Positions 1 to 23,076 are shown, counted from the stretch's first letter. The stretch is DNA of 32,000 nucleotides from Telmatocola sphagniphila (GCF_018398935.1 NZ_CP074694.1:4560001-4592000), one strand, 5' to 3'. Translations and numbers: made by a program. Notes: generated from the letters alone by a model not told the origin.

Positions 1-620
1 ATTCCCGTGAGCATAGTCATAACGATCTCTGAAAGAAGGCCTGAATCCTGCATTCTGCTAAGTTGCTTTTCAGTGAAGACACCAATTGATTTCAACGTAT
101 TCTCATATCTTTCTGTCACTTCAACGATGAACCATTTCAACTCTCCTTGGTGGGTGGCGTGACGTTTCTCTTGTGGATTCAGCGGCACCGTGTAGGAGTT
201 CATCCGGCGGAACACTTGGCGGATTTCATTATCCGTCGCTCCTACGAACACATCAGCGGATATGGAATAGCTGATGAATCGTTGTTTATCTCCTTGATCC
301 AATTGATCGTACGACCTTCCAGAGAACTCGCTTTTTCCCGTGAGTCGGAATTTATTTTCATAGAAGTCTAAAATTGCTTTGCTTCTTTGCTGTCCGTCAA
401 CGATTTCCTTTACTGTCTTTCTACTCCGTAAGTCAGTTTTCTGAGATAGGCAGAACTTCGGAATCGGGAAACCGTGGAGAATAGTGTCGATTAGATACGA
501 ACGAGCAGCGGGTGGCCAGACGGCATCGGAACGCTGATAATCGCGATTGATCGTGATTGATCCTTTCTCCATTTGGTCACAGTATTCGGCGATCGTGAAT
601 CCGGTCGTAGTTACTTGCAT
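1..620 (-). CDS. DUF262 (ParB/Srx-like, GmrSD N-terminal type) domain protein; 3' end lies outside the window
   Basis: Not in the ORF track because it is open at the window edge. My reverse-strand translation from the ATG at 620..618 gives MQVTTTGFTIAEYCDQMEKGSITINRDYQRSDAVWPPAARSYLIDTILHGFPIPKF...EIVDGQQRSKAILDF...VFRRMNSYTVPLNPQEKRHA. It stays open to position 1. The (I/V)xRxYQR...W and DGQQR motifs are the DUF262 hallmarks. Confidence 0.8.
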   Translation of the reverse strand, partial: MQVTTTGFTIAEYCDQMEKGSITINRDYQRSDAVWPPAARSYLIDTILHGFPIPKFCLSQKTDLRSRKTVKEIVDGQQRSKAILDFYENKFRLTGKSEFSGRSYDQLDQGDKQRFISYSISADVFVGATDNEIRQVFRRMNSYTVPLNPQEKRHATHQGELKWFIVEVTERYENTLKSIGVFTEKQLSRMQDSGLLSEIVMTMLTG

Positions 621-878
621 TGTCGGATCCTAAGTATTCTCGAGGTATTTTTTGTCCGTCTTCCCCGTCGAACACAATAAATTTATGACTGCTTACTCAA
701 ATTTACAGCCAAAACGACCTAAAAACTGTTCGAAAAACGGGTAATCCATATCGCTGTCTCTGAAGCACGCTCCCTTACATCGGTGCTCTTGGTGGCTGCT
801 TAGGATATCCGTATGATAGAAAAAACTGACTTAAAGCAGACATAAGTGCCATGAATATTTACAGAGGCGAATTCCTGA

Positions 879-2156
879 ATGATATTCTCCAACCCGAAGC
901 GGATGAAACAGAAAACGCCCAATAAAGAATCGTGGTTCAATTTCTATGCCGGATATTCAGGGGCGTTTGTTCGAGACGTATTAGTTCAGGTGATGCCGAA
1001 TAATCAGGGGCGGGTGTTGGACCCGTGGAATGGGAGCGGTACCACTACAACAACTGCACATGAGCAAGGTATCGACTCTACCGGTATCGATATTAACCCA
1101 GTCATGATTATTGTCGCAAAGGCGAAATTACTGTCACCAGGAGTTGTTGAAAGCTTGCTGCCACTTGCAGAAGAGATTATTGCTTTAGCAAAGCAGACGA
1201 AAAAGCGAATCCATTATACCGACCCCCTCTTGGAATGGTTTACCCCGGCTGGGGCTTTACCAACTCGATTATTAGCTGACGCAATTTCCAAAATACTGAT
1301 GCCTAGCGAGGCTTGGGAGAAAGTATTCCTCTCAGACCATATTTGTCTAGTGTCTGATCTTGCCGCTTTCTTTCTGGTCGCTCTGTTTCGAACAACCAGA
1401 TCTCTCGTCGTGCGATTTCGACCAACCAACCCAACGTGGATCAAAGCGCCGGAATCTGACAAATGTCGGATTCGACCTAACCCCGAAAAAGTCTACGATG
1501 AGTTTCGTTTGAATATTCGGGAAATGCTGGCTGGGGTGGCACCAATTTCTGGGCAAGCAAACACAATTATTTCCCTCGGTTCATCTAGTGACCTTCCATT
1601 AGCAAAGAAGAGTGTCGATGCGGTTATTGCTTCACCGCCGTACTGTACAAGAATTGATTACGCAATTGCCACGAAGCCAGAATTGGCGGTACTTGGTTAT
1701 TCGCAGAAGAGAGATTTTGATTCTTTGCGGCGACTTATGATGGGTGGTCCTGTTGTTACCTCTTTAGCCAGTTCAACAAAATCAGGATGGGGTGAAAACT
1801 GCGTAAATTTCTTAAAAGCAGTTGAGACACATCCTTCGAAGGGATCACGCAGCTATTACCACAAGCTGTTCTTGCAATACTACGCTGCCATGTACGAATC
1901 ACTGCAAGAGATCAATCGTGTACTGGTACCTGATGGCCAGTGCGTCCTTGTGGTACAGGACTCCTTTTACAAAGAAGTACACATTGATGTTGCAAAGCAT
2001 ATCGGCGAGATGGCTCGAAATCTTGGTTGGACCTTAAAAAACCGATTTGATTTCGAGGCTAACCTTGTGATGGCAAGAATGAATCCGAAGATCAAAAAAT
2101 ACCGAACTTACTCGGGTGCAACCGAGAGCGTGCTCTGGTTTCGAAAAGCGTCGTGA
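879..2156 (+). CDS. DNA amino-methyltransferase (N4-cytosine or N6-adenine type, N6_N4_Mtase-like)
   Basis: 425-aa ORF. The AdoMet-binding motif DPWNGSGTT...GIDINP is near the N-terminus. The catalytic motif IV is SPPY (DAVIASPPYCTRIDY), followed by RVLVPDGQCVLVVQD. Motif I precedes motif IV, which is permuted relative to beta-class enzymes. SPPY is most typical of N4-C methylases, but the base specificity cannot be read from the sequence. Confidence 0.85.
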   Translation: MIFSNPKRMKQKTPNKESWFNFYAGYSGAFVRDVLVQVMPNNQGRVLDPWNGSGTTTTTAHEQGIDSTGIDINPVMIIVAKAKLLSPGVVESLLPLAEEIIALAKQTKKRIHYTDPLLEWFTPAGALPTRLLADAISKILMPSEAWEKVFLSDHICLVSDLAAFFLVALFRTTRSLVVRFRPTNPTWIKAPESDKCRIRPNPEKVYDEFRLNIREMLAGVAPISGQANTIISLGSSSDLPLAKKSVDAVIASPPYCTRIDYAIATKPELAVLGYSQKRDFDSLRRLMMGGPVVTSLASSTKSGWGENCVNFLKAVETHPSKGSRSYYHKLFLQYYAAMYESLQEINRVLVPDGQCVLVVQDSFYKEVHIDVAKHIGEMARNLGWTLKNRFDFEANLVMARMNPKIKKYRTYSGATESVLWFRKAS

Positions 2157-2168
2157 GGAATTTGGATT

Positions 2169-3305
2169 ATGCCAACCATCGATCCTGTCTCCCTTATTGC
2201 TGCAGCTGACGAGCAGGTAGCAAAGGTTCGAACTCAAGGCAAAGACTATTCTTTCAACGAACTCCTTAGCATGCATGAGGAGGGCGAACTGATTATTAAC
2301 CCAGAGTATCAAAGGCTCTTCCGATGGCCAGAAGAAAAAGAATCTCGATTCATAGAATCTCTGATTTTAGAATTGCCCTTACCTCCAATTTTCGTGATCG
2401 AGGTTGAGGGCGGGAGATACGAACTAATTGACGGGTTACAGCGAATCTCATCATATTTCCATTATCGCGGTAAGCTCAAAGCACCTCATAGGAGTATAAA
2501 GGTTAATGATTACCTGAAACTGATCGACTGTGATATAGTGGAAGCGCTAAATGGGCACGTATACGATGATTTGCCCGAAGCACTTCGCATCAAACTCAAG
2601 CGTCATTCTGTTAGGGTCGAAGTGATTCGCAAAGAGAGCGACAGACGTCTCAGATATCACATGTTCAAGCGGTTGAATACAGGAGGAGCACTACTGAGTG
2701 AACAAGAAATTCGAAACTGTACTATTCGGCTCCTTGATAACACCTTCAATCAATTCATCATTGATTGCAGTCAAGAAGCCGATTTCATCGAATGTACCTC
2801 GAATGTGGGCTCAGAACAGATCGACAAGAAATTTGATCAAGAATTGGCTCTCAGATTCTTTGCATTTAAAAACTGGCCTGACAAATATAGCCACGAAATC
2901 GGTTCGTTTCTGACTGAATACATGGAGGCTGTAACGGACCCTCTGAAAGGTGTACCTTTTGATTACACCTCAGAGCGCCTCAAGTTCAAAAAAACATTCG
3001 GAGTTCTCCGTGCATGTCTCGGAAGTGACGCATTCTACATGGTTGTTAAGAGGAGTACGGGGACTCAATCGAAGTATCCTTTTAGTGTGTTACATTATGA
3101 AGCATTTACACTAGGGCTGCAATCTCACTTAGAGCGTCTCGATCTCACCAACTCATCTCAAATAGAAAAAATGAAATCAGAAGCAACGAAAATCAAGTAT
3201 GACGAAGAGTTTATTAAATTGACGACAGGAGGTGGGAAAAACACGAAAGGATCACTAACAAAGAGGATCCAGTTTGTATCTGATCGTATTGGTAAAGTCA
3301 TATGA
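2169..3305 (+). CDS. DUF262 (ParB/Srx-like) domain protein lacking a recognisable DUF1524/His-Me nuclease tail
   Basis: 378-aa ORF starting 12 nt after the methylase stop, with GAGGAA upstream. Motifs: INPEYQRLFRWPEEKESRFIESLILELPLPPIF, ELIDGLQRISS, FKRLNTGGALLSEQEIRN. The C-terminal ~180 aa has no motif I can assign. Confidence 0.85.
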   Translation: MPTIDPVSLIAAADEQVAKVRTQGKDYSFNELLSMHEEGELIINPEYQRLFRWPEEKESRFIESLILELPLPPIFVIEVEGGRYELIDGLQRISSYFHYRGKLKAPHRSIKVNDYLKLIDCDIVEALNGHVYDDLPEALRIKLKRHSVRVEVIRKESDRRLRYHMFKRLNTGGALLSEQEIRNCTIRLLDNTFNQFIIDCSQEADFIECTSNVGSEQIDKKFDQELALRFFAFKNWPDKYSHEIGSFLTEYMEAVTDPLKGVPFDYTSERLKFKKTFGVLRACLGSDAFYMVVKRSTGTQSKYPFSVLHYEAFTLGLQSHLERLDLTNSSQIEKMKSEATKIKYDEEFIKLTTGGGKNTKGSLTKRIQFVSDRIGKVI

Positions 3306-3988
3306 ACCTTGCCGACATCCGCGCAGAGCTTGAAGATGAGCTTAGATGGCGTTCGGAAGAACTCCGTTTCTTAAAAAACCAATTGACAGACCTACGAAAT
3401 GATGACGAACGCTGCCAATTTCGACGAGCTCTTGTTGTCATGCTGTATGCGCACTTTGAAGGCTTCTGGAAAGCGGCATTTTCAATCTACGTTAAGACAC
3501 TAAATTCAGAAGGAATTTTATGTAAAGATGCTGTTAATCATTTGGTTGCTGCAAGTCTCTTCGATTTGTTTTCGGCTTTATCAAGCCAAGCAAAGCATCC
3601 CTATTTTCGTGAAAGAGCAGCTGATGATACCAAGCTGCATCAACTATACCGTCAAGTCGAGTTCATCGATAATTTGCCCAACATAGACACAACGCGTCTT
3701 GAGTTGTCCGCAGAAAAAGTTGTAGATACTGAATCCAATCTTTGGCCTGTTGTTATACGGAAGATATTATTTCGCCTTGGATTTCCTGACCAGACATTCG
3801 GAAGCCATGAAGGGGCTGTATGGAATCTTGTTAACAAACGAAATGGTGTTTCCCATGGAACAGATCGATTAGGATTCACAGCGAAAGAATTCAATGAACT
3901 CGAATACGCTGTACTTAATATCATGGAGGACGTTGTAAAGATCCTTTTCAGTTGGTTGCGCGAGCGAAAATTTCTGAAAACAACTTGA
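3302..3988 (+). CDS. HEPN-like putative nuclease (resembles the MAE_28990/MAE_18760-type HEPN family)
   Basis: 228-aa ORF. Its ATG overlaps the upstream stop by 4 nt (ATGA at 3302..3305), suggesting translational coupling. The sequence is helix-rich, with a C-terminal R-x4-H motif (LVNKRNGVSHGTD). The family assignment is from memory of that family's frequent DUF262 neighbourhood and has not been searched. Confidence 0.65.
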   Translation: MNLADIRAELEDELRWRSEELRFLKNQLTDLRNDDERCQFRRALVVMLYAHFEGFWKAAFSIYVKTLNSEGILCKDAVNHLVAASLFDLFSALSSQAKHPYFRERAADDTKLHQLYRQVEFIDNLPNIDTTRLELSAEKVVDTESNLWPVVIRKILFRLGFPDQTFGSHEGAVWNLVNKRNGVSHGTDRLGFTAKEFNELEYAVLNIMEDVVKILFSWLRERKFLKTT

Positions 3989-4074
3989 TGTTTCGATTTA
4001 CTAACTGAATACTTATTGGGTTATTTGCGATATAAATCTCTTGCGTAGAGCAAGTGGGTATGTATTCTTGAATC

Positions 4075-4971
4075 ATGCCCCGCCGTCTTCCCCCCAAGGG
4101 CGATTTTCAGCCCGATCTCTTTGCCGCCAGTTTTGCGGATATCCCGATCCGCGACCAGCGGGATACTATGGAGCGGCCATTTTTTAGCCTTTCCAAAAAA
4201 CCTCGTATTACTCCAATCGCTTACCATGTTGGCGATGTTTGGGTGGAAGTCAGTCCCAATCCCCAGTTCGGCATGGCAACCATCTGGGATGCCGATATTC
4301 TGCTTTGGGCTTCAACTCAAATTACGGAGGCTCTCGACCGAGGTCTTCCGGCCAATCGCACTCTCAAATTCCATCCTCATAATCTGCTGAAGTCCATTCG
4401 TCGAGATATCGGTGGGGATCACTATGTCCGATTGCGGGCAGCCCTGGAACGCCTCACCCATACGGCGGTTCGGACGAATATCCGGGCCAATGGCAAAAAG
4501 AAGTTCGCTTCCTTCCATTGGCTGGAAAGCTGGACCGAGGTCACCGATGAAACCACGGGCGAAACCCAGGGGATGACCATTACTATTCCCGACTGGCTAT
4601 TCCAAGGCATCGTGATGAAGGGAGGTGTGCTGACTATCCACGAGGATTATTTCCTGCTCACGGGCGGTATAGAGCGATGGCTTTATCGGGTTGCCCGGAA
4701 GCATGCCGGGCATCAGGAGATTGGCTGGCAGTTTACCATGCGGCAGCTTTATGAAAAGTCCGGTTCGACAGCTCGGTTTTCGGATTTCGCTATCGATGTC
4801 CGGAAGCTGGTCGAATTGAATCAATTACCCGAATATTCGCTCTATCTGCATCGCAATGAGCAGGAGGAAGAGGTCATCAATTTCCTGAGGCGTAGCCAAT
4901 TGGGGGTCGATGATCCGAATTACCAGTTCGAACGGAATCCAAAGCGGCGTTTGACGCCCGCTGCGGTTTGA
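4075..4971 (+). CDS. repA: Plasmid replication initiator RepA (Replication initiator protein A / RPA family)
   Basis: 298-aa ORF with the family-typical N-terminal block DIPIRDQRDTMERPFFSLSKKPRITPIAY...GMATIWDADILLWASTQI. An iteron array lies immediately downstream. Confidence 0.9.
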   Translation: MPRRLPPKGDFQPDLFAASFADIPIRDQRDTMERPFFSLSKKPRITPIAYHVGDVWVEVSPNPQFGMATIWDADILLWASTQITEALDRGLPANRTLKFHPHNLLKSIRRDIGGDHYVRLRAALERLTHTAVRTNIRANGKKKFASFHWLESWTEVTDETTGETQGMTITIPDWLFQGIVMKGGVLTIHEDYFLLTGGIERWLYRVARKHAGHQEIGWQFTMRQLYEKSGSTARFSDFAIDVRKLVELNQLPEYSLYLHRNEQEEEVINFLRRSQLGVDDPNYQFERNPKRRLTPAAV

Positions 4972-5996: not shown

Positions 5997-6671
5997 TTAA
6001 GCAGATTCCAATTTCTTGATTTTGCTTCGCTTTTTGCTGGCGACCGCATCCGGCAGTAGCTCCCGGAAAAGGGCCTGCACCTCATCGGCGGCTTCGCGGC
6101 CCCGACTCCCCAGTTTCCAGACGACCGCTCCCTGCCCCGGTGCATCGGCATAGATCTGCTTCAGAGTTAAAGCAGTCTTGGCCAGCGGAAGTTCTAAAGC
6201 TTCGGCGGCATCCTTCATATCCTGCGTCAAGCGATAGTTTTTTCCCACCATCGAAAGGACGATCACGGCTTCGGGATGGCCTCCCCGAATATCCTGGGAT
6301 TGCCGTAAGACCTTGGTGGCCTGGGAAAGCGCCCTCACCTCCAACATGGAGGCTTTGCAGGGGACGATAGCCAGATCCGCTCGAAGTAACAAAGCCCGGC
6401 TGGTTTCGGTGTTGCTGCCCGGGCCGTCGGCGACGACATACTCGGCGTGTTCGCTCAGTGTTGGCAAACGATCCAAGATTTCTTCGGGGTCGGCCAGTCG
6501 TACCGTTTTAACTCCGGGTACCGCTTCGGCGGCCCAATCGGAGGAGGAATGCTGCGTGTCGCAATCGGCGAGAGTTACCGTATGGCCCTGCTCAAAAAGC
6601 CAAGCGGCCAAATGGACAGCCAGCGTGGACTTCCCAACTCCCCCTTTTGAATTTGCAACAACAATGATCAT
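5997..6671 (-). CDS. parA: ParA-family partition ATPase
   Basis: 224-aa ORF with a deviant Walker A at the N-terminus (MIIVVANSKGGVGKSTLAVHLA). ParA/Soj-typical blocks follow (DCDTQHSS, VVADGPG, IVPCKAS). Confidence 0.92.
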   Translation of the reverse strand: MIIVVANSKGGVGKSTLAVHLAAWLFEQGHTVTLADCDTQHSSSDWAAEAVPGVKTVRLADPEEILDRLPTLSEHAEYVVADGPGSNTETSRALLLRADLAIVPCKASMLEVRALSQATKVLRQSQDIRGGHPEAVIVLSMVGKNYRLTQDMKDAAEALELPLAKTALTLKQIYADAPGQGAVVWKLGSRGREAADEVQALFRELLPDAVASKKRSKIKKLESA

Positions 6672-7921: not shown

Positions 7922-10900
7922 TCAAATCATCAATTCTTTGGATCGAGTGTCAGACGATTGGGTCACTTGCGTCCGGTAATCGGAGAGGTGAGGGGAGACT
8001 TCCGGTAGTGAAGTTTCCTCGGAAGGGTTTACTTCCTCCTTTAATAGCTCTTGCTCTCGCTGCATCCGCTCGCGAACCCGTTTAGTCACCGGCTCCTCGG
8101 CAATGATGATTCTCTGTTCTCCGGAACGCTGGGCGGTGGCTTCAATCGTGTTTATCGATTTCAGATCTTTAATCCGTTCGGCAATTTCAGAAGTCGATAC
8201 CCGCTCTTCTCCTTCAGCGGGAGGAGTCGTGATCGAAAGCCCCAGCTTCAATTGATCCCGGAGGTTGGTCAGTTCCGCCAAATAATCCTCATGGGCAAAT
8301 TCTTGACCCAGACGACTCTGGTAGTCGTGTAACTGACTCTGGGCCAGTTCCAGATCGTCCCGTTCTTTCTGGCACCTTTCGTCGTAGGTAGTGGCCAATC
8401 GTTCCAAAGCATTCAGCACCGCACGCGGACCGCGATGCTCGCGGCTGAGTGTTGCCGTCCGTTTACTGGCTCCCTCGAGATAGACTTCCGGGGGATAATC
8501 CGCATGTAGTATCATCCCAAAATTCAATCCCTTATATCGTCCCAGGGCTACTCGAGTGGATTGACTGACTCGCTCCGGGAGATTCTCTAGTCGCTGGCCG
8601 AGTACCGCTTGGGCATCGCGAGGAGGTACCGGACGATTCCCGACGAAGAGAGAATTCGGATGGTCCTGGATCGTGTTCCGGTCGGCCTCGAAGGCGGCGA
8701 GGCGTCTTTGATAATCGGCAATATGATCAGGTAAGTTGCGGATATGCTTTCTCGCCAGATACTGCTCGTCGGCGTGGTTCTTTTTCAAGACCGATAGCCG
8801 TTGCAATTCGGCATCGGCTTCAGCGAGGGTTAACACCGCCGGATTGCCCGAAGCAATCGCTTTGACTTCGGCGTAGGAGAGTTCCTGACCGCCGATATCC
8901 TCGGCCTTACGCAGTCCGCAATTGCCCGAGATGACTTGGGCAATAAAGCGAGCCTTCGTCTCTAAGGCCTGCCACATATAAGAATCGAACGAGCCTTGCG
9001 TGACGTAGCGATAGATCGAAACTTCTTCACTTTCATTGCCTTGCCGGAGAATCCGGCCTTCTCGTTGTTCGACTTCGGCGGGTTTCCAGGGGGCATCGAG
9101 ATGATGCAAGGCCACCAGTCGCTTTTGGACGTTGGTTCCGGTGCCCATTTTCATGGTGCTGCCCAGTAACACCCGCACCGAACCCTGACGGACCTTCTCG
9201 AACAAGGCCTGCTTCTTGGCGTCCGAATCGGCTTCGCCGACGGCGGCGATCTGCTCGGCGGGGATTCCCTGCCGAATTAACTTCTGAATGATATCCTCGT
9301 AGGCGGAATAGCCCCAGGGAGTCGGATTCACTCCCATATCGCAAAAAATCATCTGCGTGCCGCGAGTGACTTCGCTCTTTCGCCAGATACGGACAACATT
9401 TTCGACCAGGGCGTTTACCTTCGATCCTGGATCGTCCTCGGCCTGGGCGTCGAGCATGCGAGCATCGAGGGCCAGTTTTCGGCCATCGGTGGTGATGGCT
9501 AAGGCGTTATCCTTGCGAGGATCGACCTTCTGGCTGCGGATCTGCTCGTAGCGTTGCACCAATTCCTGCTGCAGCCGGGACTGGGCTTCCGACATCGGGC
9601 AGGCGACGATGGTCGCCTTGCCTCCTTCGAGCTTGGGACGAGGGAGGTTCAACATTTCGGCGGTCTGCACATCGGCAAACGCTCGGAACATCTGTTGCAG
9701 TTCCGGAAGGTTAGTGAACTTGGCAAAGCGGCTACGAGGCTTTAAGGATTGACCATCGGGGGATATCTCCATGGTATCCACCACTTCGCCGAAGGTGGCA
9801 GCCCAGGCATCGAAGTGTTCGATGCCTCGGTCGCTCAATCCTTTCGGATCGAGGAAGCGCTGCATCGTGTACATTTCCATCATCGAGTTGCTGACCGGCG
9901 TGCCGGTCGCGAACTCGACCCCATGACCGGGATGTTGCTCATTCAAGTAGCGGCATTTCATGAAGAGATCGAAGGCTCGCTCCGATCCGCCGGTCTGGAT
10001 TCCAGCGACCCTATCCATCTTGGTCGGGGTTTCCAGGTTTTTAAAGAAGTGGGCCTCGTCGATGAAGATTTGATCGACTCCCAGTTCATCGAATACCAGC
10101 CCATCATCCTTTTTATCTTCGGCCAATAGGTCTTTGAGCTTGGCTTCGCGGGACGCTTTCTGCTTCTCGATGGTCTTAATCAGATTGCGGTGCGGTTTGT
10201 CCTGGGAACGGGAGCGATCACGCAAGAGCTCGTCGTACTCGGCGATTTGCTCTCTTAGGAACTTCTCTTGATAATCCTTGGACATGCCGATCCGCTCGAA
10301 GGAAGAATGAGTGACGATAATGCCGTCCCAGTCCCCGCTGGCGATCTTGGCCGTTAAGAACTTCCGCTTGTCCCGGCTCAAGTCCTCCTTGGTAGCCACC
10401 AGTAGATGGGCATTGGGGTATAACTGCATGAATTCCCGGGCGAATTGCTCGAGCATGTGGTTGGGAACCACATACATCGGCTTTTTCACCAACCCGGTCT
10501 GTTTCATCTTCATACCGGTAGCGGCCATGGTGAAGGTCTTGCCCGCTCCGACGACATGAGCCAGCAAGGTGTTGCCACTGCTCATACCCCGCCAGATGGC
10601 ATCCTTCTGGTGCGGACGAAGCTGAACGGTAGTATTCATCCCTGGAAAATCCAGATGACCGCCGTCGAATAACCTCGGCCGCAAATTGTTGTAAGTGTCG
10701 TTGTAAGTGCGAACTAAACGCTCGGTCCGTTCCGGATCCTGGAAGATCCACGACCGGAATTTTTCTTTGATGATTTTCTGTTTTTCTTTGGCGGCTAAAG
10801 TAGCATCGGGATTGATGACTTTTTCATCCTTATCCGATCCCGGCACGGTGTCGTAGATCACCGGCGACTTCAAATTGAGAGCCAGTTCGAACAGCCAAGT

Positions 10901-13597
10901 GCCATTCGCCCGGTCGGTGCCGTAATCGGCCGTGGCGGCCACGGAACGCTCGGTATGGTAATCGGCTTCAAAGCTCCACAAGGCATCTTTCTTTAAGTGA
11001 GCGACTTTGACGGAGTCGGCATCGACTCGGAAGAGCTCGCTGGCGAACGCCTGGATATCGGACTCCGGAATCCAGGGGGCTCCCAGATTAGCATCGATAT
11101 CGCCGGGCAGAACATCGGGCGGTTGGACGACGCGTAATGCCTCGGCATTCCGCGAGAATTTTTCGCCCGCTCGCTCGGCTAACGCGAGCTTCGCCCGCAC
11201 ATTACCCGAAAGGTATTCATCCGCCGTTTCCCAGTGTTGCGATTCGGGATTGAGGTAAATCAGTTCCCCCAGTTCGCCGATAATCTTCTCTTCGGGTTGT
11301 CCGTAAAGTTCGGCGATATAACCCAAATCAATGCCGCCCTTGCGGTCGAGCGACACCAATAGCCCTTCCTCGGCACTGCGGACCTGCAGAATCTCCGGCG
11401 TTTTGCCAACGACATCTTTTAGGAGGATGGCAGCTTTGGTCGCTTTACCCGTGACTTCGTCGTACTCTTCGAGCGACATCACCAACATCGCATCGGGGTC
11501 TTCCCGAAACTTCGCGAGATTGGGCATGCGGCGGATCACCGTGCCATCGGCGGTTTCGCCGAAAGTGGTTTTGTTGATCGGACCGTATTGCGACACGAAA
11601 TAGTCATAAGTCTGATTCAGCTTTCTTCGGGCCTGCTCGCGATGCTCCTCCGGCCAGCCCTCATTCTGCGATTGCAACACGCGACGGGCTTCGTCGCGAA
11701 GTTGAATCAACGCGGCTAAGCGTTTGCCCATCAAGCCGCCGGTGGCGGTCAGTACCGTGCTTCCGTGTTGGGCGGGCACGGCCCGACCGCCGATCAGCTG
11801 ACAGATGGCTTTCTGATCGCTCAAGAAAAAACTGCCCTCGGTGATATGCCGCTCCAGAGGAGGCGGAGTGAAGCAAGTTGTAGTATCTCGTTGGGATTCC
11901 GTCGCATCTTGCAGCGTCTCGAACCGGGGCAGGCGGGCAATCGCCTCGCGAAGTTGCGAGGATAAGTCGCCGTTGGATAACACGCTATAACCGGTCTCAC
12001 CGCCATAGAGACTGTCCTTGCTCGTCCAGGTGCCCAGCACCATCTCCGGATGGCTGTGAAAATACTCATTGATCGGAATGGCTTTTCCCTCGATATCGAG
12101 CGGTTCGGACTTCAGCCAGTTGGTCTCCGTGTGATGGGCTGCTTCGTCGGGGGCTCGCTTGCGAAGGAAAACTATATCGGTAACGACAGCAGTGCCTTCG
12201 CGTTTGAAGGCGTCACAGGGAAGGCGGATCGCTCCGATAAAATCGGCTCGCTCCGCGAGATATTCTCGGATCGAGGCATTTTGCTTATCGAGTGTGTAGT
12301 GCGAAGTGACCAGGGCCAGTACTCCGCCGGGCTTTAAGGCATCGACCGATTTGGCAAAGAAGTAATCGTGCAGAGAAAATCGCTGCCCTTTATGATCCAG
12401 CTTGACGTCGGCAAACGGCACGTTGCCGATCACGGCATCGAGCCTGCCATCGGGAAGTTTAGTGTCCCGAAAATTCTCGATGCGGATGTCCTGGTCTGGA
12501 TGCAACGCTTTTGCGATGCGGCCGGAAGTGCGGTCGAGTTCCACTCCGATAAAATGCTGCTTCGGCTTGGCGTAGCTTAAAAAATTCCCGGTGCCGCAGC
12601 CGGGCTCTAAAACCGTGGCTTGTTCCGGGATACCCAGGCGATCTAAGGCTTGGTGCATCGCCGTCATAACAACGGGTGCGGTATAGAAGGCGTTGAAAGT
12701 AGTTCGTTTGGCGGATTCGTAATCTTCGGGGGAGAGTAGGCTTTTCAATTCTTCGCCAAGACTCTGCCACGAAGCGTCTTTGTAAGTGCCTTTAATGGGA
12801 TCGGGAAACAGCGATAACGCCACGGCTCCGAAACCACCGAAGCGGGCCAAAGCTTGCCGTTCTTCCTCGGTGGCCAGACGATTTTCAGCATCGAGCCGGT
12901 TTAAGACGCGGATAGCCGCGAGAATATCGCGGGCCTTCGCTTTTTCACCGGAGGACGTTGAGACGCTCAGAGGGGATGAGTCTGTGGGGACGGTGACTTG
13001 CGAAATGGGTGCTTCGACTTGCTCGATAGGTTGATCGAACAAGGAATTTTGCCGGGGGCGGGGCTTTAATCCGAATCGCTGGGTTAAGTGATGAGAGTCG
13101 GAGGTACTGGCGAATCGCTCGGCATAGCTGGGGGTAAGAATTCCTCCTCCCACTGTTGGAGTGCTACCTCCAATGCGGCTTGGCTTTGAGTGAGGGAATC
13201 CATTGGAAGATCGTTCGGAAAGCTCGCTAGAGCTTCGAGATGAAGCTCCCGAAGTCGACTCGCTTGCCGGTTGACGGTCGACAGGAGAGTCTTCGAAGAG
13301 CGAAGAGGCTCGAAGAGGTTGGATCGGCTTTGAATCCAATCGAGAACGATGGTCTTGTACTGCATTAGGAGCCTCGGTTGGGTCGATCACCGACGTCGTT
13401 GTCTCCGCGAATTCTTCAAAATCGGTGGCAAAGCCGGGGAGTTGAGGAGTCCGTGAAGGGGGCTTCGAGGGCATCAAAAGTAATGAATATTGGAAAGGGG
13501 TAGCAGAGTTATAAATCGATTCCGCGTTCGGAGCAATCGCTTTTTGATGACTGTGAGAATTGGGTAGCAAACAGATCTGAGACATGGGCTTCTCCAT
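7922..13597 (-). CDS. Giant N6-adenine DNA methyltransferase / SNF2-type helicase fusion protein (plasmid and phage DarB-like architecture)
   Basis: 1891-aa ORF.
- Methylase motifs: VLEPGCGTGNFL (motif I) and DAVIGNVPFADVKL (NPPF-like motif IV).
- Helicase motifs: AHVVGAGKTF (motif I), IFIDEAHFFKN (DEAH), ATGTPVSNSMMEMY (SNF2-like motif III), LLGSTMKMGTGTNVQ (motif V), QREGRILRQGN (motif VI).
- The first ~215 aa are S/P-rich and look disordered. Confidence 0.9.
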   Translation of the reverse strand: MEKPMSQICLLPNSHSHQKAIAPNAESIYNSATPFQYSLLLMPSKPPSRTPQLPGFATDFEEFAETTTSVIDPTEAPNAVQDHRSRLDSKPIQPLRASSLFEDSPVDRQPASESTSGASSRSSSELSERSSNGFPHSKPSRIGGSTPTVGGGILTPSYAERFASTSDSHHLTQRFGLKPRPRQNSLFDQPIEQVEAPISQVTVPTDSSPLSVSTSSGEKAKARDILAAIRVLNRLDAENRLATEEERQALARFGGFGAVALSLFPDPIKGTYKDASWQSLGEELKSLLSPEDYESAKRTTFNAFYTAPVVMTAMHQALDRLGIPEQATVLEPGCGTGNFLSYAKPKQHFIGVELDRTSGRIAKALHPDQDIRIENFRDTKLPDGRLDAVIGNVPFADVKLDHKGQRFSLHDYFFAKSVDALKPGGVLALVTSHYTLDKQNASIREYLAERADFIGAIRLPCDAFKREGTAVVTDIVFLRKRAPDEAAHHTETNWLKSEPLDIEGKAIPINEYFHSHPEMVLGTWTSKDSLYGGETGYSVLSNGDLSSQLREAIARLPRFETLQDATESQRDTTTCFTPPPLERHITEGSFFLSDQKAICQLIGGRAVPAQHGSTVLTATGGLMGKRLAALIQLRDEARRVLQSQNEGWPEEHREQARRKLNQTYDYFVSQYGPINKTTFGETADGTVIRRMPNLAKFREDPDAMLVMSLEEYDEVTGKATKAAILLKDVVGKTPEILQVRSAEEGLLVSLDRKGGIDLGYIAELYGQPEEKIIGELGELIYLNPESQHWETADEYLSGNVRAKLALAERAGEKFSRNAEALRVVQPPDVLPGDIDANLGAPWIPESDIQAFASELFRVDADSVKVAHLKKDALWSFEADYHTERSVAATADYGTDRANGTWLFELALNLKSPVIYDTVPGSDKDEKVINPDATLAAKEKQKIIKEKFRSWIFQDPERTERLVRTYNDTYNNLRPRLFDGGHLDFPGMNTTVQLRPHQKDAIWRGMSSGNTLLAHVVGAGKTFTMAATGMKMKQTGLVKKPMYVVPNHMLEQFAREFMQLYPNAHLLVATKEDLSRDKRKFLTAKIASGDWDGIIVTHSSFERIGMSKDYQEKFLREQIAEYDELLRDRSRSQDKPHRNLIKTIEKQKASREAKLKDLLAEDKKDDGLVFDELGVDQIFIDEAHFFKNLETPTKMDRVAGIQTGGSERAFDLFMKCRYLNEQHPGHGVEFATGTPVSNSMMEMYTMQRFLDPKGLSDRGIEHFDAWAATFGEVVDTMEISPDGQSLKPRSRFAKFTNLPELQQMFRAFADVQTAEMLNLPRPKLEGGKATIVACPMSEAQSRLQQELVQRYEQIRSQKVDPRKDNALAITTDGRKLALDARMLDAQAEDDPGSKVNALVENVVRIWRKSEVTRGTQMIFCDMGVNPTPWGYSAYEDIIQKLIRQGIPAEQIAAVGEADSDAKKQALFEKVRQGSVRVLLGSTMKMGTGTNVQKRLVALHHLDAPWKPAEVEQREGRILRQGNESEEVSIYRYVTQGSFDSYMWQALETKARFIAQVISGNCGLRKAEDIGGQELSYAEVKAIASGNPAVLTLAEADAELQRLSVLKKNHADEQYLARKHIRNLPDHIADYQRRLAAFEADRNTIQDHPNSLFVGNRPVPPRDAQAVLGQRLENLPERVSQSTRVALGRYKGLNFGMILHADYPPEVYLEGASKRTATLSREHRGPRAVLNALERLATTYDERCQKERDDLELAQSQLHDYQSRLGQEFAHEDYLAELTNLRDQLKLGLSITTPPAEGEERVSTSEIAERIKDLKSINTIEATAQRSGEQRIIIAEEPVTKRVRERMQREQELLKEEVNPSEETSLPEVSPHLSDYRTQVTQSSDTRSKELMI

Positions 13598-19806: not shown

Positions 19807-20481
19807 ATGGAGTTCGTTCCCGGCACCGGCAAGAGCTTCATCAAGCAATCCCTTCAGCGGCTTCCCGAAAACCAGCACCTGGTCGCCACCGTGGGCCGCA
19901 CCTTGCACACCTATACCAACTCCGTCAAAATACTCTGCGATGCGTTCCGCATCGACTTCGAAAGCTCTGCCTTCAAGTGCGAACGCCGACTCATCGAACA
20001 AGCCTTCAGCCTCAACCATGCGGGCAAGTCGGTCACCACCATTCTCGACGACGCTCACCTCATGGATATGGCCTGTCTGCGAAAGTTGCGGCTGCTCTTC
20101 GAAGACTTCCCCAAAAACCACAACCTCATCCTCATCGGCCAACCCAGCCTGCTCGCCAACCTCGACCTCGGCGTCAACCAGGACATCAAAAGCCGAGTCA
20201 CTTACTCCGTCATCGCCAAACGGCTCGGACCCGATTTACTGCGCGACTTCCTTCTCCGGGAACTCGATCGCATCGGACTCGGCCACAATACTTTTACGCA
20301 ACCCGCCGTCGATCTCATCGTCCGCGCCGCCGACGGCATCCTGCGTAAAGCCCGCAATCTCTGCGTCGGCTGCCTCATCGAAGCCGTTCGATCCGCCAAT
20401 AAAACCGTGGACATCGACAACGTCAACCGCGTCTTGATGCAACCCCACTGGCAAAAAGAATCCGACCTCGCCGATTACTGA
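19807..20481 (+). pseudogene. AAA_22 / ExeA- or TniB-like transposition ATPase, apparently 5'-truncated
   Basis: The 224-aa ORF begins only 5 residues before the Walker A (MEFVPGTGKSF). Walker B is ILDDAHLM. The same frame has a stop at 19759..19761, so the usual ~35-40 aa N-terminal segment is missing. It abuts the IS66 fragment. Confidence 0.65.
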
Positions 20482-20507
20482 TTCTCAGCGCCCCCGTCGG
20501 AGAAACG

Positions 20508-20813
20508 ATGATCCAACCCGATCTACTACGCCGCATTCGCAACGATTTGCCCATGCCCGTCACCATCGCCACGCTGGGAGCCGATGGGCCACCTTCGAAA
20601 ATGAGCGAAGGTTACTTCCGCTTCCTCTGCCCCAACTGCGGCGAAATGCGGGCTACCGTCAACCCACGCAACAACCTCGCCCACTGCTTCGACTGCCAAA
20701 AAAACTTCAACAACATCGACCTCTTGCTCACTCTCGATTACGACTTCCTCACCGCCGTCGATTTACTCGAACGCTGGCTCAACGAATATCAAACCCGACA
20801 AGCCAAAAAGTAA
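20508..20813 (+). CDS. Small zinc-finger protein (CHC2/primase-like C4 finger), probably part of the same transposon remnant
   Basis: 101-aa ORF with CPNCGEMRATVNPRNNLAHCFDCQKNFNNIDLL (CxxC-x15-HCxxC). Confidence 0.5.
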   Translation: MIQPDLLRRIRNDLPMPVTIATLGADGPPSKMSEGYFRFLCPNCGEMRATVNPRNNLAHCFDCQKNFNNIDLLLTLDYDFLTAVDLLERWLNEYQTRQAKK

Positions 20814-21067
20814 TCAGTCGCAGGAAGCCCGTTCCTCTACGAACCTCTGCTGCTCGCGGCGACCGGCAGCGCCTCGCGCCGGACTACGCCGGCCCATCGC
20901 AACACCCCGGTCTCGGTCATCAGACCGCTCCAAAATTCCCCGGTATTCGGCAAAACACCCTTCAAAATGCCAAAATCCCTACAGCTTTAATTCGGCTACA
21001 AATGCGACCAGAATTCGGTTCGGGACAAGTAGGAGAAATGTATACCCGGTTTGAATTTTACTTCTGC

Positions 21068-21839: not shown

Positions 21840-22364
21840 TCATTGAGGTCTATCCCAAACGAGATCATAAGCGTCCAGTATATTGAAAATATCTAATATC
21901 TCGAGGTAAGTGGGATTATTATCCGTAGAGCTCGCAAGCCAAACTTCAGAATCTATATAACCAAAAACATATTTTATTTTATTTTGAAATGTATTTTTAA
22001 CTGAAAGAAATATGTCGATTGATAACCAATCGTCTGGATAAATCAACTCAGACGACTTATAGTTTGATAACTTGACGCAATTCGAGTGGCTTGCGATTTT
22101 AACAAAATGATCGACAAGTGCAGCATCAGGAGATGAAAATACAACATGAATGCCGCAGAAGCAATTTGAGGTATCTGCTATAAGCAGAGGAAAATAACCA
22201 CGAACCATTAGGTTAAATAGTTTAGGTTTTTCCTTCGCCCAATTTCCATCTGGAAATAAAGGATTTCCAAATTCAAAAAGCAAATCGGTCATATTGAAAT
22301 GCCTCTCCGAGTGAAAAAAAATCAAAGCCTCTCGCATGAGGTTAAAAGCAGAGAATTTATACAC
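21840..22364 (-). CDS. Hypothetical protein in an AT-rich segment; candidate orphan or cognate immunity protein of the RHS locus
   Basis: A 174-codon ORF in very AT-rich DNA, where long stop-free runs are unlikely by chance. The likely real start is ATG 22292 (MTDLLFEFGNPLFPDGNW...), preceded by GGAGAGG. It is on the same strand as the RHS gene and downstream of it. No family is recognised. Confidence 0.45.
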   Translation of the reverse strand: MYKFSAFNLMREALIFFHSERHFNMTDLLFEFGNPLFPDGNWAKEKPKLFNLMVRGYFPLLIADTSNCFCGIHVVFSSPDAALVDHFVKIASHSNCVKLSNYKSSELIYPDDWLSIDIFLSVKNTFQNKIKYVFGYIDSEVWLASSTDNNPTYLEILDIFNILDAYDLVWDRPQ

Positions 22365-22829
22365 AAAGTTACAATCTGAAAATAATTACGACTCTTCAGC
22401 TACAATATGACTGCAAAGGTAAATAAATTGAGGTTGTTATTACAATTAGCAGTAATTAAATATTGACTAGCGATTAATACATACTAATTACTATCAATTT
22501 CCAAGCACGATTACTCCTCGTCAAGTGGTTACATTGTTTGACTTAATTGCAAAATACTCATCTAGTCTGGCGCAATGCGAATTAATCAAAACGAATTTTC
22601 CGTATTAAGAAGAGTATCTTAAGCGGACCTGACAAATCCCAAAATATCAATTGAATGCCCGCACATAAAAGTATTTAGCTGAATCTTAAAATAGATCATA
22701 ATGAATAGCCTGTGCGCAAAAACGCAATAACAAGTTATCTGCATATTTGGTAATAATTTTTATTTAACTAACCTAAGCCGGATATAGTATCGCAGATCGA
22801 ACTAATTGACAAATGCTAATAATTAAGAG

Positions 22830-22890
22830 GCCCTAACAAAACCTCTGATTGTCCATTGAATACCGCTATAAAAAGGGGTTTTGTTAGGGC
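22830..22890. repeat. 14-bp perfect inverted repeat (long-loop hairpin) in the AT-rich gap
   Basis: GCCCTAACAAAACC - about 33 nt - GGTTTTGTTAGGGC. It is a GC-rich island within AT-rich DNA that has no ORF of 60 codons or more, about 190 nt downstream of the RHS stop. Confidence 0.5.
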
Positions 22891-23076
22891 TTCTAAGTAA
22901 AAAACAAGCGAAAATCAAGTTTTCTAGCAAAAATTAAGAATACATATATTGCTACTATTTTGAATAAAACACAATTCTTGATTGATCGATCTTCTCGGAA
23001 GAAAACTAATCAAGTCCGTTTTTCTGTATTCGATGCGAAAAAGATATAGTTTTCGTCGAGGTCGCTTAAGCAATTC

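What the first reader, a model, noticed from the sequence alone, without database searches (positions are those of the whole stretch)
879..3988. Tight methyltransferase - DUF262 - HEPN operon: candidate undescribed restriction-like defence system
Three co-directional genes are packed with a 12-nt gap and a 4-nt ATGA overlap.
- Gene 1 is an amino-methyltransferase (DPWNGSGTT and SPPY motifs).
- Gene 2 is a DUF262 ParB/Srx-like protein (QRLFRW and DGLQR motifs) with no recognisable DUF1524/His-Me nuclease half. In GmrSD, BrxU and SspE that half supplies cleavage.
- Gene 3 is a separate 228-aa protein with a C-terminal Rx4H HEPN signature (RNGVSH).

This looks like a split GmrSD-type enzyme, with the effector swapped for a HEPN nuclease in trans. 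The dedicated methylase is a logical puzzle. Classical DUF262 enzymes attack modified DNA, whereas a cognate methylase implies either self-marking (R-M logic) or a modification the sensor is blind to. I do not know of an experimentally characterised system with this composition. Computational surveys of HEPN proteins have noted DUF262 neighbourhoods, so the novelty is functional rather than absolute.
Basis: partly seen in the sequence, partly recalled or inferred. Interest (0 to 1): 0.8.

Follow-up and report, generated by a model that had tools for sequence, protein, structure and literature searches.

The report
Methylase–DUF262–HEPN three-gene defence cassette
This is a real three-gene cassette (DNA methylase, ParB-like DUF262 sensor, HEPN RNase) inherited as a unit across many phyla; it is a methylase-carrying, experimentally untested branch of a known two-gene anti-phage type, so it is moderately interesting rather than new in kind.

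Summary
Three co-directional genes (879-2156, 2169-3305, 3302-3988) encode an amino-methyltransferase, a nuclease-less DUF262 protein and a MAE_28990/RiboL-PSP-type HEPN protein.

The trio is not a local accident. Of 67 related loci with enough upstream DNA, 60 keep the same order, across more than a dozen phyla. No fourth gene is conserved. The motifs SPPY, DGLQR and Rx4H are near-invariant.

On a DUF262 tree the trio forms one clade. It sits inside a broader family of two-gene DUF262-HEPN pairs that lack a methylase. The validated E. coli anti-T4 system PD-T4-2 has that two-gene make-up. The methylase appears to have been gained once, then lost several times and replaced once.

The composition is not undescribed. 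[quoted passage not shown] I found no experimental work on the trio.

The most likely mechanism is modification-coupled defence. The methylase marks host DNA, the DUF262 NTPase reads the DNA's modification state, and the HEPN RNase arrests the cell. All three steps are inferred.

Verdict: new variant of a known kind; interest about 0.55.

The parts
879..2156 (+). g1: amino (N6-A/N4-C) DNA methyltransferase, 425 aa. Motif I DPWNGSGTT is at nt 1020-1046 and motif IV SPPY at nt 1632-1643. A poorly conserved stretch (aa 81-244), a putative target-recognition region, lies between them.
   Evidence: PF01555 4.5e-15. PADLOC MTase_II 4.3e-25 over aa 12-385. PDB beta-class methylases match in permuted order, with motif I at aa 38-81 and motif IV at 241-262. 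SPPY present in 60/60 trios. Variable region 28% vs core 46% mean pairwise identity. Full-length homologues support the start at 879.
2169..3305 (+). g2: ParB-DUF262 NTPase-type domain (aa ~20-190) with motifs QRLFRW (nt 2310-2327), DGLQR (nt 2430-2444) and FKRLN (nt 2664-2678), plus a helical C-terminal domain (aa ~190-378). No nuclease domain.
   Evidence: PF03235 8e-24. PADLOC NsnA 1.1e-59 and PD-T4-2_A 5.6e-41, both full length. AF2 model pLDDT 83.9. Foldseek neighbours are ParB/Noc, pNOB8 ParB-N, SspE and BrxU, all weak (E 0.01-0.07), and no nuclease fold. All three motifs at least 97% conserved.
3302..3988 (+). g3: stand-alone HEPN protein of the MAE_28990/RiboL-PSP type, 228 aa. Rx4H (RNGVSH) at nt 3839-3856. 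Translationally coupled to g2 through the ATGA overlap.
   Evidence: PF18737 9.3e-29 and PF18735 7.4e-28. R180 and H185 invariant in 30 homologues down to 38% identity. AF2 model pLDDT 89.5, all-helical. The 4-nt g2/g3 overlap occurs in 41/60 trios.
621..878 (.). 258-bp intergenic region between g1 and the divergently oriented second DUF262 gene. Presumed shared promoter region (inferred only).
   Evidence: Gene positions. The promoter-like site at 858-886 is no better than chance (9 sites found vs 7.4 expected).
1..620 (-). N-terminal 206 codons of a second, divergent DUF262 gene (348 aa in full; motifs QRSDAVW, DGQQR, FRRMN) that runs off the window's left edge. Outside the window it is followed by a 215-aa protein with an Rx4H-like RNYFAH. 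Possibly an associated second sensor/effector pair.
   Evidence: A homologous second pair lies directly downstream of the trio in L076: 44% identity over 98% of the DUF262 protein, and the 215-aa partner carries RNFFGH.

Best explanation
The three genes form one mobile, self-contained, modification-coupled defence cassette.

- **g1** is an amino-methyltransferase with its AdoMet-binding motif I before the catalytic SPPY motif. A variable, recognition-type region lies between them. It is proposed to mark the host's own DNA at a specific site. SPPY hints at N4-methylcytosine.
- **g2** is a ParB-type DUF262 NTPase with a helical C-terminal domain and no nuclease domain. By its resemblance to NsnA's C-terminal ParBDB domain, that domain is presumed to bind DNA. 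g2 is proposed to act as the sensor and switch. It would read the modification state of DNA and use NTP binding or hydrolysis to change state, as DUF262 does in GmrSD, BrxU and SspE.
- **g3** is a HEPN RNase made in stoichiometric coupling with g2 through the ATGA overlap. It is the proposed effector. Once released or activated by g2 it would cut RNA (tRNA or mRNA) and stop growth of the infected cell, which is an abortive-infection type outcome.

In evolutionary terms, the cassette is the methylase-bearing branch of the two-gene DUF262-HEPN family. PD-T4-2 is a validated, more distant relative of that family.

Shown here: gene structure, domain identities, conservation of catalytic motifs, inheritance as a unit, mobility, and the single-clade origin of the methylase association.

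Inferred:
- that g1 methylates DNA;
- that g2 senses methylation state, and in which direction (unmethylated foreign DNA as trigger, or methylated self DNA as a licence as in Ssp);
- that g2 controls g3;
- that g3 is an RNase;
- any anti-phage phenotype.
For: 1. **Unit of inheritance.** Of 67 HEPN-seeded loci with enough upstream DNA, 60 have g1-g2-g3 in the same order and strand. They span Planctomycetota, Bacillota, Bacteroidota, Acidobacteriota, Chloroflexota, Cyanobacteria, Pseudomonadota, Myxococcota, Verrucomicrobiota and archaea. Three of 4 methylase-seeded loci are also trios. No other gene family recurs in more than 3 of 79 loci. Pairwise identities of the three proteins correlate at 0.67-0.77.
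2. **Catalytic motifs under selection.** SPPY 60/60, DGLQR 59/60, QRxFxW 59/60, RNxxxH 57/60. R180/H185 are invariant.
3. **A methylase function is selected.** In L027, g1 is replaced by an unrelated beta-class PF01555 methylase (1.2e-34) that also carries SPPY. Roseomonas plasmid pTT14-4 has a divergent methylase in the same position.
4. **g2 is a sensor-type protein, not a nuclease.** It matches NsnA and PD-T4-2_A over its full length. Its nearest folds are ParB/Noc, SspE and BrxU. No nuclease family was found.
5. **The two-gene core is a defence system.** PD-T4-2 ('DUF262, HEPN') protects E. coli against T4 both natively and in K12 (PMC9519451).
6. **Precedent for a modification module plus a DUF262 reader.** SspE's DUF262 NTPase is stimulated by host phosphorothioate (PMC10952713). 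One modification module can serve two restriction modules (PMC12707154).
7. **Mobile, defence-island context.**
   - Integrases lie next to L080, L102 and L103.
   - Seven trios are on IMG/VR contigs.
   - The window carries RepA, ParA and a TrwC relaxase.
   - The cassette's GC is 0.41-0.46, against mostly 0.49-0.58 for the adjacent 16 kb.
Against: - There is no experimental evidence for any step.
- Six loci inside the trio clade (L011, L013, L050, L070, L078, L087) keep intact g2/g3 motifs but have no adjacent methylase. The basal pair-only relatives never have one. So g2-g3 is not obligatorily lethal without the linked methylase. That argues against a simple 'unmethylated DNA triggers killing' logic, unless an unlinked methylase compensates, which I could not check.
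- g3 has no significant structural neighbour in the PDB. RNase activity therefore rests on the HMM family assignment and the Rx4H motif.
- g1 could in principle modify RNA rather than DNA. It shows weak hits to UPF0020/RlmKL-like and generic SAM methyltransferase families.
- No g2-g3 or g1-g2 fusion proteins appeared among the best 150 HEPN-family representatives, so there is no fusion evidence for physical coupling.
Confidence: 0.55

Rival explanations
1. PrrC-like two-tier system, the hypothesis of Anantharaman et al. 2013. The methylase plus the DUF262 'ParB nuclease' form a conventional R-M pair in which g2 itself cuts unmethylated DNA. The HEPN RNase is a latent suicide module. The R-M proteins hold it inactive, and it is released only when a phage anti-restriction factor neutralises them.
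For: - This is the published proposal for HEPN genes embedded in R-M operons (PMC3710099).
- Table 1 of that paper calls the partner a 'ParB nuclease'.
- g2 and all related DUF262 proteins give weak hits (E 1e-7 to 2e-14) to a PADLOC 'Type II restriction enzyme' model, PDLC03418, restricted to the DUF262 domain.
- The methylase is conserved in 90% of loci.
Against: - g2 has no recognisable nuclease domain or fold.
- In the characterised DUF262 enzymes the DUF262 domain is the NTPase/sensor, and cleavage comes from DUF1524 (PMC10952713; PMC12065111).
- Pair-only relatives, including PD-T4-2, work or persist without any methylase. In those, the HEPN protein cannot be a back-up to an R-M unit.
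Confidence: 0.2
2. Type IV-like logic. g2 recognises foreign modified DNA, as GmrSD and BrxU do and as PD-T4-2's activity on T4 might suggest, and triggers the HEPN RNase. The linked methylase is not the self-mark. It serves another role, for example protecting the mobile element from the recipient's restriction systems or epigenetic regulation, or it produces a mark the sensor ignores.
For: - DUF262 enzymes with known targets read modified DNA.
- PD-T4-2 was selected on T4, whose DNA carries glucosylated hydroxymethylcytosine (the GmrSD target).
- The pair survives loss of the methylase in several lineages.
- A g1-type methylase can occur without the pair (L104).
- The window's element carries another large methylase-helicase.
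Against: - An accessory methylase would not be expected to stay glued to the pair in 60/67 loci across many phyla, to co-diverge with it (r about 0.67-0.71), or to be replaced by a different methylase at the same position when lost (L027).
- g1 divergence tracks the C-terminal half of g2 slightly better than the DUF262 domain (partial r 0.22 vs -0.12). This is weak evidence.
Confidence: 0.13
3. Addiction or stabilisation module of mobile elements rather than anti-phage defence. The cassette behaves like a selfish R-M/toxin-antitoxin unit. Loss of the element dilutes methylation and unleashes the HEPN toxin (post-segregational killing), or the unit excludes competing plasmids.
For: DUF262-HEPN genes sit next to plasmid replication genes:
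- in the window, g3 ends 86 nt before repA;
- in Psychrobacter, repM ends 159 nt before the DUF262 gene;
- in an E. coli IncX1 plasmid, rep overlaps the DUF262 gene by 8 nt;
- the pair is on a 5.7-kb Col plasmid and a 4-kb E. coli plasmid.

The trio is found on integrative elements, next to integrases.
Against: - Most of the 79 genomic loci have no replication or partition gene nearby.
- Intact pair-only loci show the HEPN protein is tolerated without the methylase.
- Stabilisation and defence are not mutually exclusive for R-M-like modules.
Confidence: 0.1

Closest known systems
MAE_28990 HEPN operon class (Anantharaman, Makarova, Burroughs, Koonin & Aravind 2013, Biol Direct 8:15, Table 1)
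   Same: [quoted passage not shown] The window's g3 hits PF18737 HEPN_MAE_28990 at 9e-29. This locus is a member of that computationally defined class.
   Different: That work gives one table line and a generic PrrC-like hypothesis. It has no anatomy, phylogeny or experiment. It calls the DUF262 protein a nuclease, which the analysis here does not support.
PD-T4-2 (Vassallo et al. 2022, E. coli ECOR65)
   Same: A DUF262 protein followed by a HEPN protein. g2 matches PADLOC's PD-T4-2_A model over its full length (5.6e-41). It is a validated anti-T4 defence both natively and in K12.
   Different: PD-T4-2 has two genes in about 1.54 kb, and the cloned fragment has no room for a methylase. Its HEPN model (168 positions) does not match g3 even at E<=1. 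The window adds a dedicated methylase and uses a 228-aa MAE_28990/RiboL-PSP-type HEPN.
Menshen (NsnABC; Millman et al. 2022; Li et al. 2025, PMC12065111)
   Same: g2 has the NsnA architecture (ParB-DUF262 plus a helical C-terminal 'ParBDB'-type domain). It gives its best PADLOC score to NsnA (1.1e-59, model positions 42-382 of 385).
   Different: There is no NsnB ATPase and no NsnC (inPIN plus nuclease). The partners here are a methylase and a HEPN protein.
GmrSD / BrxU / SspE (DUF262-DUF1524 enzymes), especially SspABCD-SspE
   Same: A DUF262 NTPase-sensor domain with QRxxxW, DGxQR and FxxxN motifs. SspE and BrxU are among the nearest folds. Ssp couples a host DNA-modification module to a DUF262 reader, which is the closest analogue for the logic of a linked methylase.
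   Different: There is no DUF1524 His-Me nuclease. The effector is a separate HEPN (predicted RNase) protein. The modification enzyme is a single methyltransferase rather than a phosphorothioation machinery.
PrrC-EcoprrI (R-M-linked HEPN anticodon nuclease)
   Same: A HEPN RNase genetically embedded with modification/restriction genes. It is the model for RNase-based back-up suicide.
   Different: PrrC has its own ABC-type ATPase domain and sits inside a Type IC R-M system. Here there is no Type I machinery, and the partner is a ParB-type protein.

Membership tests
MAE_28990 HEPN / ParB / methylase operon class (Anantharaman 2013) | HEPN protein of the MAE_28990 family with conserved Rx4-6H | tested here: met
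   PF18737 9.3e-29, above the 26.8-bit cut-off. R180/H185 invariant.
MAE_28990 HEPN / ParB / methylase operon class (Anantharaman 2013) | Operon partner with a ParB-like (DUF262) domain | tested here: met
   PF03235 8e-24. 4-nt overlap with the HEPN gene.
MAE_28990 HEPN / ParB / methylase operon class (Anantharaman 2013) | DNA methylase gene in the same operon | tested here: met
   PF01555 4.5e-15. 12-nt gap to g2. Conserved in 60/67 loci.
PD-T4-2 | PD-T4-2_A-type DUF262 protein | tested here: met
   PADLOC PDLC04027 5.6e-41, aa 29-368 on model positions 40-355 of 363. It scores higher on NsnA, however.
PD-T4-2 | PD-T4-2_B-type HEPN partner | tested here: not met
   No PADLOC hit for g3 at E<=1. 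The 168-position model only weakly touches one E. coli plasmid HEPN (8.5e-4). hhalign of the g3 family against E. coli plasmid HEPNs aligns only around Rx4H (probability 14-39%).
PD-T4-2 | Two-gene system that works without a methylase | tested here: not met
   The window has a linked methylase. The PD-T4-2 clone was 338141-339964 with ORFs at 338334-339873.
PD-T4-2 | Protection against phage | not testable with these tools
   Requires plaque assays.
Menshen (NsnABC) | NsnA: ParB-DUF262 plus ParBDB | tested here: met
   PADLOC NsnA 1.1e-59. Two-domain AF2 model. Motifs I-III present (definition).
Menshen (NsnABC) | NsnB ATPase gene following NsnA | tested here: not met
   The gene after g2 is the HEPN gene. 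No further conserved gene in 79 loci.
Menshen (NsnABC) | NsnC effector (inPIN plus nuclease) | tested here: not met
   g3 has no PADLOC NsnC hit and is a HEPN protein by Pfam.
GmrSD-family Type IV restriction enzymes | DUF262 N-terminal NTPase domain | tested here: met
   PF03235 8e-24. BrxU and SspE are among the nearest folds.
GmrSD-family Type IV restriction enzymes | DUF1524 His-Me finger nuclease, fused or as a separate GmrD | tested here: not met
   No such Pfam hit in g2, g3 or the neighbours. No nuclease fold among the g2 model's neighbours.
Type II restriction-modification system | Cognate DNA methyltransferase | tested here: met
   PADLOC MTase_II 4.3e-25. DNA as the substrate and the target motif were not tested.
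Type II restriction-modification system | Restriction endonuclease with a nuclease catalytic domain | tested here: inconclusive
   g2 weakly hits PADLOC REase_II PDLC03418 (3.2e-7), but only over the DUF262 domain. No nuclease domain or fold was found.

The most novel reading that the evidence does not exclude
An R-M-like system whose 'restriction' arm is not a DNase. A ParB-type NTPase reads the methylation state written by its own methylase and switches on a HEPN RNase. Self versus non-self is then decided on DNA, but the response is executed on RNA. One methylase may also serve more than one DUF262-HEPN sensor/effector pair. Supporting examples:
- Telmatocola has a second, divergently oriented pair.
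- L076 and L103 have a second pair directly downstream of the trio.
Probability: 0.35. Interest if true: 0.75.

Novelty: new variant of a known kind. Interest (0 to 1): 0.55.

Why it matters
DUF262 proteins are known as readers of modified DNA that drive a fused DNase. Here the same reader is coupled to its own methylase and to an RNase made as a separate protein.

If methylation state controls the RNase, this would be a compact and widely distributed example of epigenetic self/non-self discrimination feeding an abortive-infection effector. It would also explain how the uncharacterised PD-T4-2-type pairs sense infection.

The natural series makes the question testable with simple genetics. That series runs from the pair alone, to the pair plus methylase, to methylase replaced, to methylase lost.

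The cassette is small (3.1 kb) and self-contained. It comes from a cultured organism, Telmatocola sphagniphila, so it is practical to clone.

Tried and rejected
- **Megablast of 700-4100 against plasmids:** no match.
- **Sequence searches of the PDB:** nothing for g2 or g3.
- **Direct comparison with PD-T4-2 from ECOR65:** I could not fetch the sequence. I used PADLOC's PD-T4-2_A and PD-T4-2_B models and E. coli plasmid pairs as proxies.
- **DARNA preprint:** it is PD-T7-3, an unrelated HEPN protein.
- **Abortive or direct action of PD-T4-2:** this is only in a figure, not in the text.
- **Window scans:**
  - Promoter and terminator scans were no better than shuffles.
  - No Rfam families or tRNAs were found.
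  - Repeats are short and probably chance.
- **Fusion proteins:** none among the best 150 HEPN-family representatives.
- **'Split GmrSD':** rejected as the best description, because g2's basal relatives on the tree are other two-gene DUF262-HEPN pairs rather than fused DUF262-DUF1524 enzymes.
- **Menshen and PD-T4-2 membership:** rejected, because defining partner genes are absent or unmatched.


Full report
**1. Observation**

The three ORFs are exactly as described: 879-2156 (425 aa), 2169-3305 (378 aa) and 3302-3988 (228 aa), all on the + strand.
- The g1 stop ends at 2156, and 12 nt containing a GAGGAA-like ribosome-binding site precede the g2 ATG.
- g2 and g3 share ATGA at 3302-3305.
- Pfam gives g1 PF01555 N6_N4_Mtase (4.5e-15). 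g2 hits PF03235 GmrSD_N (8e-24) and nothing else. g3 hits PF18737 HEPN_MAE_28990 (9e-29) and PF18735 HEPN_RiboL-PSP (7e-28).
- All quoted motifs are present.
- g2 is 100% identical to a DUF262 protein of Telmatocola sphagniphila (Planctomycetota) recorded on a 6.59-Mb contig.
- A Logan contig from that organism is identical to the window over the 700 bases compared, and all three genes are called on it.

**2. Is the trio real beyond this locus?**

The HEPN protein has 344 homologues in the 90%-clustered collection. In an exhaustive profile search of 1.84 billion representatives, 224 clusters (at 50% identity) score E<=1e-30 and 1,462 score E<=1e-10.

A scan of one genome per species found 163 stretches encoding a relative and returned 79 loci. 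These come from Planctomycetota, Bacillota, Bacteroidota, Acidobacteriota, Chloroflexota, Cyanobacteria, Pseudomonadota, Myxococcota and relatives, Verrucomicrobiota and Methanothrix-type archaea.

I called ORFs with my own script and searched them with the three window proteins. The results were:
- 60 of the 67 loci with enough upstream DNA carry g1-g2-g3 in the same order and on the same strand.
- The 4-nt g2/g3 overlap is present in 41 of those 60.
- SPPY is present in 60/60, DGLQR in 59/60, QRxFxW in 59/60 and RNxxxH in 57/60.
- R180 and H185 are invariant in a 30-sequence alignment reaching down to 38% identity.
- No other gene family recurs in more than 3 of the 79 loci, so the cassette is autonomous.
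- Pairwise identities of the three proteins correlate at r = 0.67-0.77, as expected for inheritance as a unit.

Because that survey was seeded on the HEPN gene, I also looked up four loci through methylase homologues. Three are trios: Pseudomonas, Termitidicoccus and an Armatimonadota MAG. One has two g1-type methylases alone.

**3. Exceptions and evolutionary history**

Exceptions within the survey:
- Five loci have room for a methylase but lack one (L011, L013, L050, L070, L078).
- L036 keeps only a g1 fragment.
- L062 has an insertion sequence between g1 and g2.
- L027 has, in place of g1, an unrelated beta-class PF01555 methylase (1.2e-34) that also carries SPPY, plus an extra 288-aa ORF.
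- Roseomonas plasmid pTT14-4 has a divergent methylase upstream of the pair.

On IMG/VR contigs, the seven trios (L081-L086, L095) have HEPN proteins 33-42% identical to g3. L087 (33%) and the seven more distant relatives (25-29%) have only the DUF262-HEPN pair. Pair-only versions also sit on plasmids of Psychrobacter, Enterobacter (a 5.7-kb Col plasmid) and three E. coli plasmids.

A neighbour-joining tree of 88 DUF262 proteins places ten of these pair-only sequences outside the trio clade. They comprise three E. coli plasmid sequences, the Psychrobacter plasmid sequence and six viral-contig sequences. The tree was rooted on Telmatocola's second DUF262 protein.
- All trios fall in one clade of 77 leaves.
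- That clade also contains the six pair-only loci, in four separate places, plus the replaced, fragmentary and divergent-methylase cases.
- The simplest reading is one gain of the methylase by a two-gene ancestor, followed by several losses and at least one replacement.
- The tree has no support values, so this remains an inference.
- The pair-only members inside the clade keep DGLQR and Rx4H.

**4. What the proteins are**

*g1.* AdoMet motif I (aa 48-56) comes before catalytic motif IV (aa 252-255). The solved beta-class methylases match it in the opposite order. The roughly 160 residues between the motifs are the least conserved part: 28% mean pairwise identity against 46% for the core. From my own knowledge of the Malone-Blumenthal-Cheng classification, this is the alpha-type layout with a central target-recognition domain. 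Also from my own knowledge, Ser in motif IV is typical of N4-cytosine enzymes but is not diagnostic. Sources label homologues 'DNA methyltransferase', 'DNA modification methylase' or, by automated similarity, 'Modification methylase MjaII'.

*g2.* It carries the three DUF262 motifs defined in the literature (QRxxxW, DGxQR, FxxxN), each at least 97% conserved.
- Its AF2 model (pLDDT 83.9) has an N-terminal alpha/beta domain and a helical C-terminal domain.
- Its nearest solved folds are ParB/Noc CTP-dependent clamps, pNOB8 ParB-N, SspE and BrxU. All are weak matches (E 0.01-0.07), and no nuclease fold appears.
- PADLOC's NsnA model (Menshen) matches at 1.1e-59 and PD-T4-2_A at 5.6e-41, both over the full length.
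- Every DUF262 partner of a HEPN protein that I tested scores higher on NsnA than on PD-T4-2_A. The NsnA model is therefore acting as a generic model of this architecture.

*g3.* Its model is confidently all-helical (pLDDT 89.5) but has no significant PDB neighbour. The HEPN assignment therefore rests on the HMM scores and the invariant Rx4H. NCBI annotates relatives as 'MAE_28990/MAE_18760 family HEPN-like nuclease'.

**5. Comparison with what is known**

The composition is not new as an observation. Table 1 of Anantharaman et al. [quoted passage not shown] That paper proposes a PrrC-like role for HEPN domains in R-M operons.

The two-gene core matches the make-up of PD-T4-2, recorded as 'DUF262, HEPN'. 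PD-T4-2 protects E. coli against T4 in its native strain ECOR65 and in K12. It was cloned on a 1.8-kb fragment with no room for a methylase.

The locus fails membership of three named families:
- **PD-T4-2:** g3 does not match PD-T4-2_B even at E<=1, and a methylase is present.
- **Menshen:** there is no NsnB and no NsnC.
- **GmrSD:** there is no DUF1524.

Judged by its individual models, PADLOC would not name the trio. I could not run its system-calling step. Full-text searches found no functional study of MAE_28990-type systems or of a methylase-DUF262-HEPN system.

**6. Mechanism**

I favour (about 0.55) a modification-coupled defence. g1 marks host DNA, g2 reads the modification state through its DUF262 NTPase and its presumed DNA-binding C-terminal domain, and g3 is the RNase effector that g2 controls.

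The closest analogue for the logic is SspABCD-SspE. There a host modification module is read by a DUF262 NTPase, and one modification module can work with two restriction modules.

The direction of sensing is open.
- Pair-only loci inside the trio clade remain intact. This argues that g2-g3 is not automatically lethal on unmethylated host DNA.
- That favours a licensing or tuning role for methylation over strict Type II logic. An unlinked methylase in those genomes cannot be excluded.
- g1 divergence tracks the C-terminal half of g2 slightly better than the DUF262 domain (partial r 0.22 vs -0.12). This is weak evidence because the sequences share ancestry.

Rivals:
- the PrrC-like two-tier model, with g2 as DNase and HEPN as back-up (0.2);
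- Type IV-like sensing of foreign modification, with an accessory methylase (0.13);
- a plasmid-addiction role (0.1). This is suggested by the repeated position of DUF262-HEPN genes beside or overlapping plasmid replication genes.

**7. Context**

The window lies on a mobile element. It carries RepA (PF10134, 2e-80) 86 nt after g3, ParA, a TrwC relaxase, a 1,891-aa methylase-SNF2 helicase and a PIN toxin. A tyrosine integrase lies upstream in the Telmatocola contig. The cassette's GC content is 0.41-0.46, against mostly 0.49-0.58 for the next 16 kb.

Immediately to the left, in the opposite orientation, is a second DUF262 gene (DGQQR; window 1-620, running off the edge). Outside the window it is followed by a 215-aa protein with RNYFAH. 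A homologous second pair follows the trio directly in L076. Another kind of second pair follows it in L103. In L034 and L037 a further divergent DUF262 gene, preceded by a 375-389-aa ORF of unknown family, lies next to the trio.

**8. Verdict**

- The feature is a real, widespread but rare, experimentally uncharacterised cassette.
- It is best described as a methylase-bearing variant of the DUF262-HEPN defence type, and it was already catalogued computationally in 2013.

Caveats:
- ORF calls and the tree are my own simple analyses.
- Many loci are metagenome-assembled genomes.
- No step of the mechanism has been shown experimentally.

Noticed in passing
window 1-620 (- strand, runs off the left edge); L080 4348-6038: A second, divergently oriented DUF262 gene (348 aa, canonical DGQQR) followed by a 215-aa protein. 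That protein has no Pfam or PADLOC hit but carries RNYFAH, an Rx4H signature. This is a second DUF262/HEPN-like pair abutting the trio and sharing its 258-bp upstream region.
   Followed up: partly
L076 7749-9451; L103 8167-10023; L034 7651-9863; L037 2315-4470: A second DUF262 module recurs next to the trio in other genomes. L076 has a homologue of the Telmatocola second pair (44% identity over 98% of the DUF262 protein; the 215-aa partner has RNFFGH) directly downstream. L103 has MTase-DUF262-HEPN-DUF262-HEPN(RiboL-PSP), all co-directional. L034 and L037 share a third type: a 375-389-aa protein of unknown family plus a divergent DUF262 protein. One methylase may serve several sensor/effector pairs.
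   Followed up: partly
window 3988-4075; L097 3817-3977; L101 2851-2858: DUF262-HEPN genes repeatedly sit beside plasmid replication-initiator genes. In the window, g3 ends 86 nt before repA. In the Psychrobacter plasmid, repM ends 159 nt before the DUF262 gene. In an E. coli IncX1 plasmid, rep overlaps the DUF262 gene by 8 nt. This might point to a plasmid-maintenance or exclusion role for the ParB-like protein.
   Followed up: no
L027 4021-5783: In one Bdellovibrionales MAG, the g1-type methylase is replaced by an unrelated 298-aa beta-class PF01555 methylase that also has SPPY. It is followed by a 288-aa ORF with no Pfam hit, then by g2-g3.
   Followed up: partly
L104 3660-6539: Two g1-type methylases (439 and 512 aa) lie back to back on opposite strands with no DUF262 or HEPN gene nearby. 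The methylase family is therefore not strictly confined to the trio.
   Followed up: no
g2 and all related DUF262 proteins (e.g. window 2169-3305): All of these give weak hits (E 1e-7 to 2e-14), restricted to the DUF262 domain, to a 372-position PADLOC 'Type II restriction enzyme' model (PDLC03418). That suggests some catalogued Type II 'restriction enzyme' is a DUF262 protein of similar size. I could not identify which one.
   Followed up: no
window 790-811 and 4136-4157: A 22-nt imperfect inverted repeat (77% complementary, core CGGATATCC) brackets the three-gene cassette. The right arm lies inside repA. Probably chance.
   Followed up: no
window 4075-31991: The rest of the window looks like an integrated conjugative or mobilisable element. 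It has RepA (4075-4971), ParA (5997-6671, -), a 1,891-aa methylase + SNF2/ResIII helicase (7922-13597, -), a TrwC relaxase-helicase (15784-18585), a 2,314-aa FG-GAP-repeat protein (23077-30021, -) and a PIN-domain protein (30916-31365). There is a GC trough (0.34) at 22001-23000 and a strong negative GC skew (-0.29) at 20001-21000.
   Followed up: partly
window 3302-3988: The homologue search returned no hit for the HEPN protein closer than 82% identity, whereas g1 and g2 each returned a 100%-identical hit. The gene is nevertheless called, at the same 228 aa, on the Logan contig of the same organism. I did not check why.
   Followed up: no
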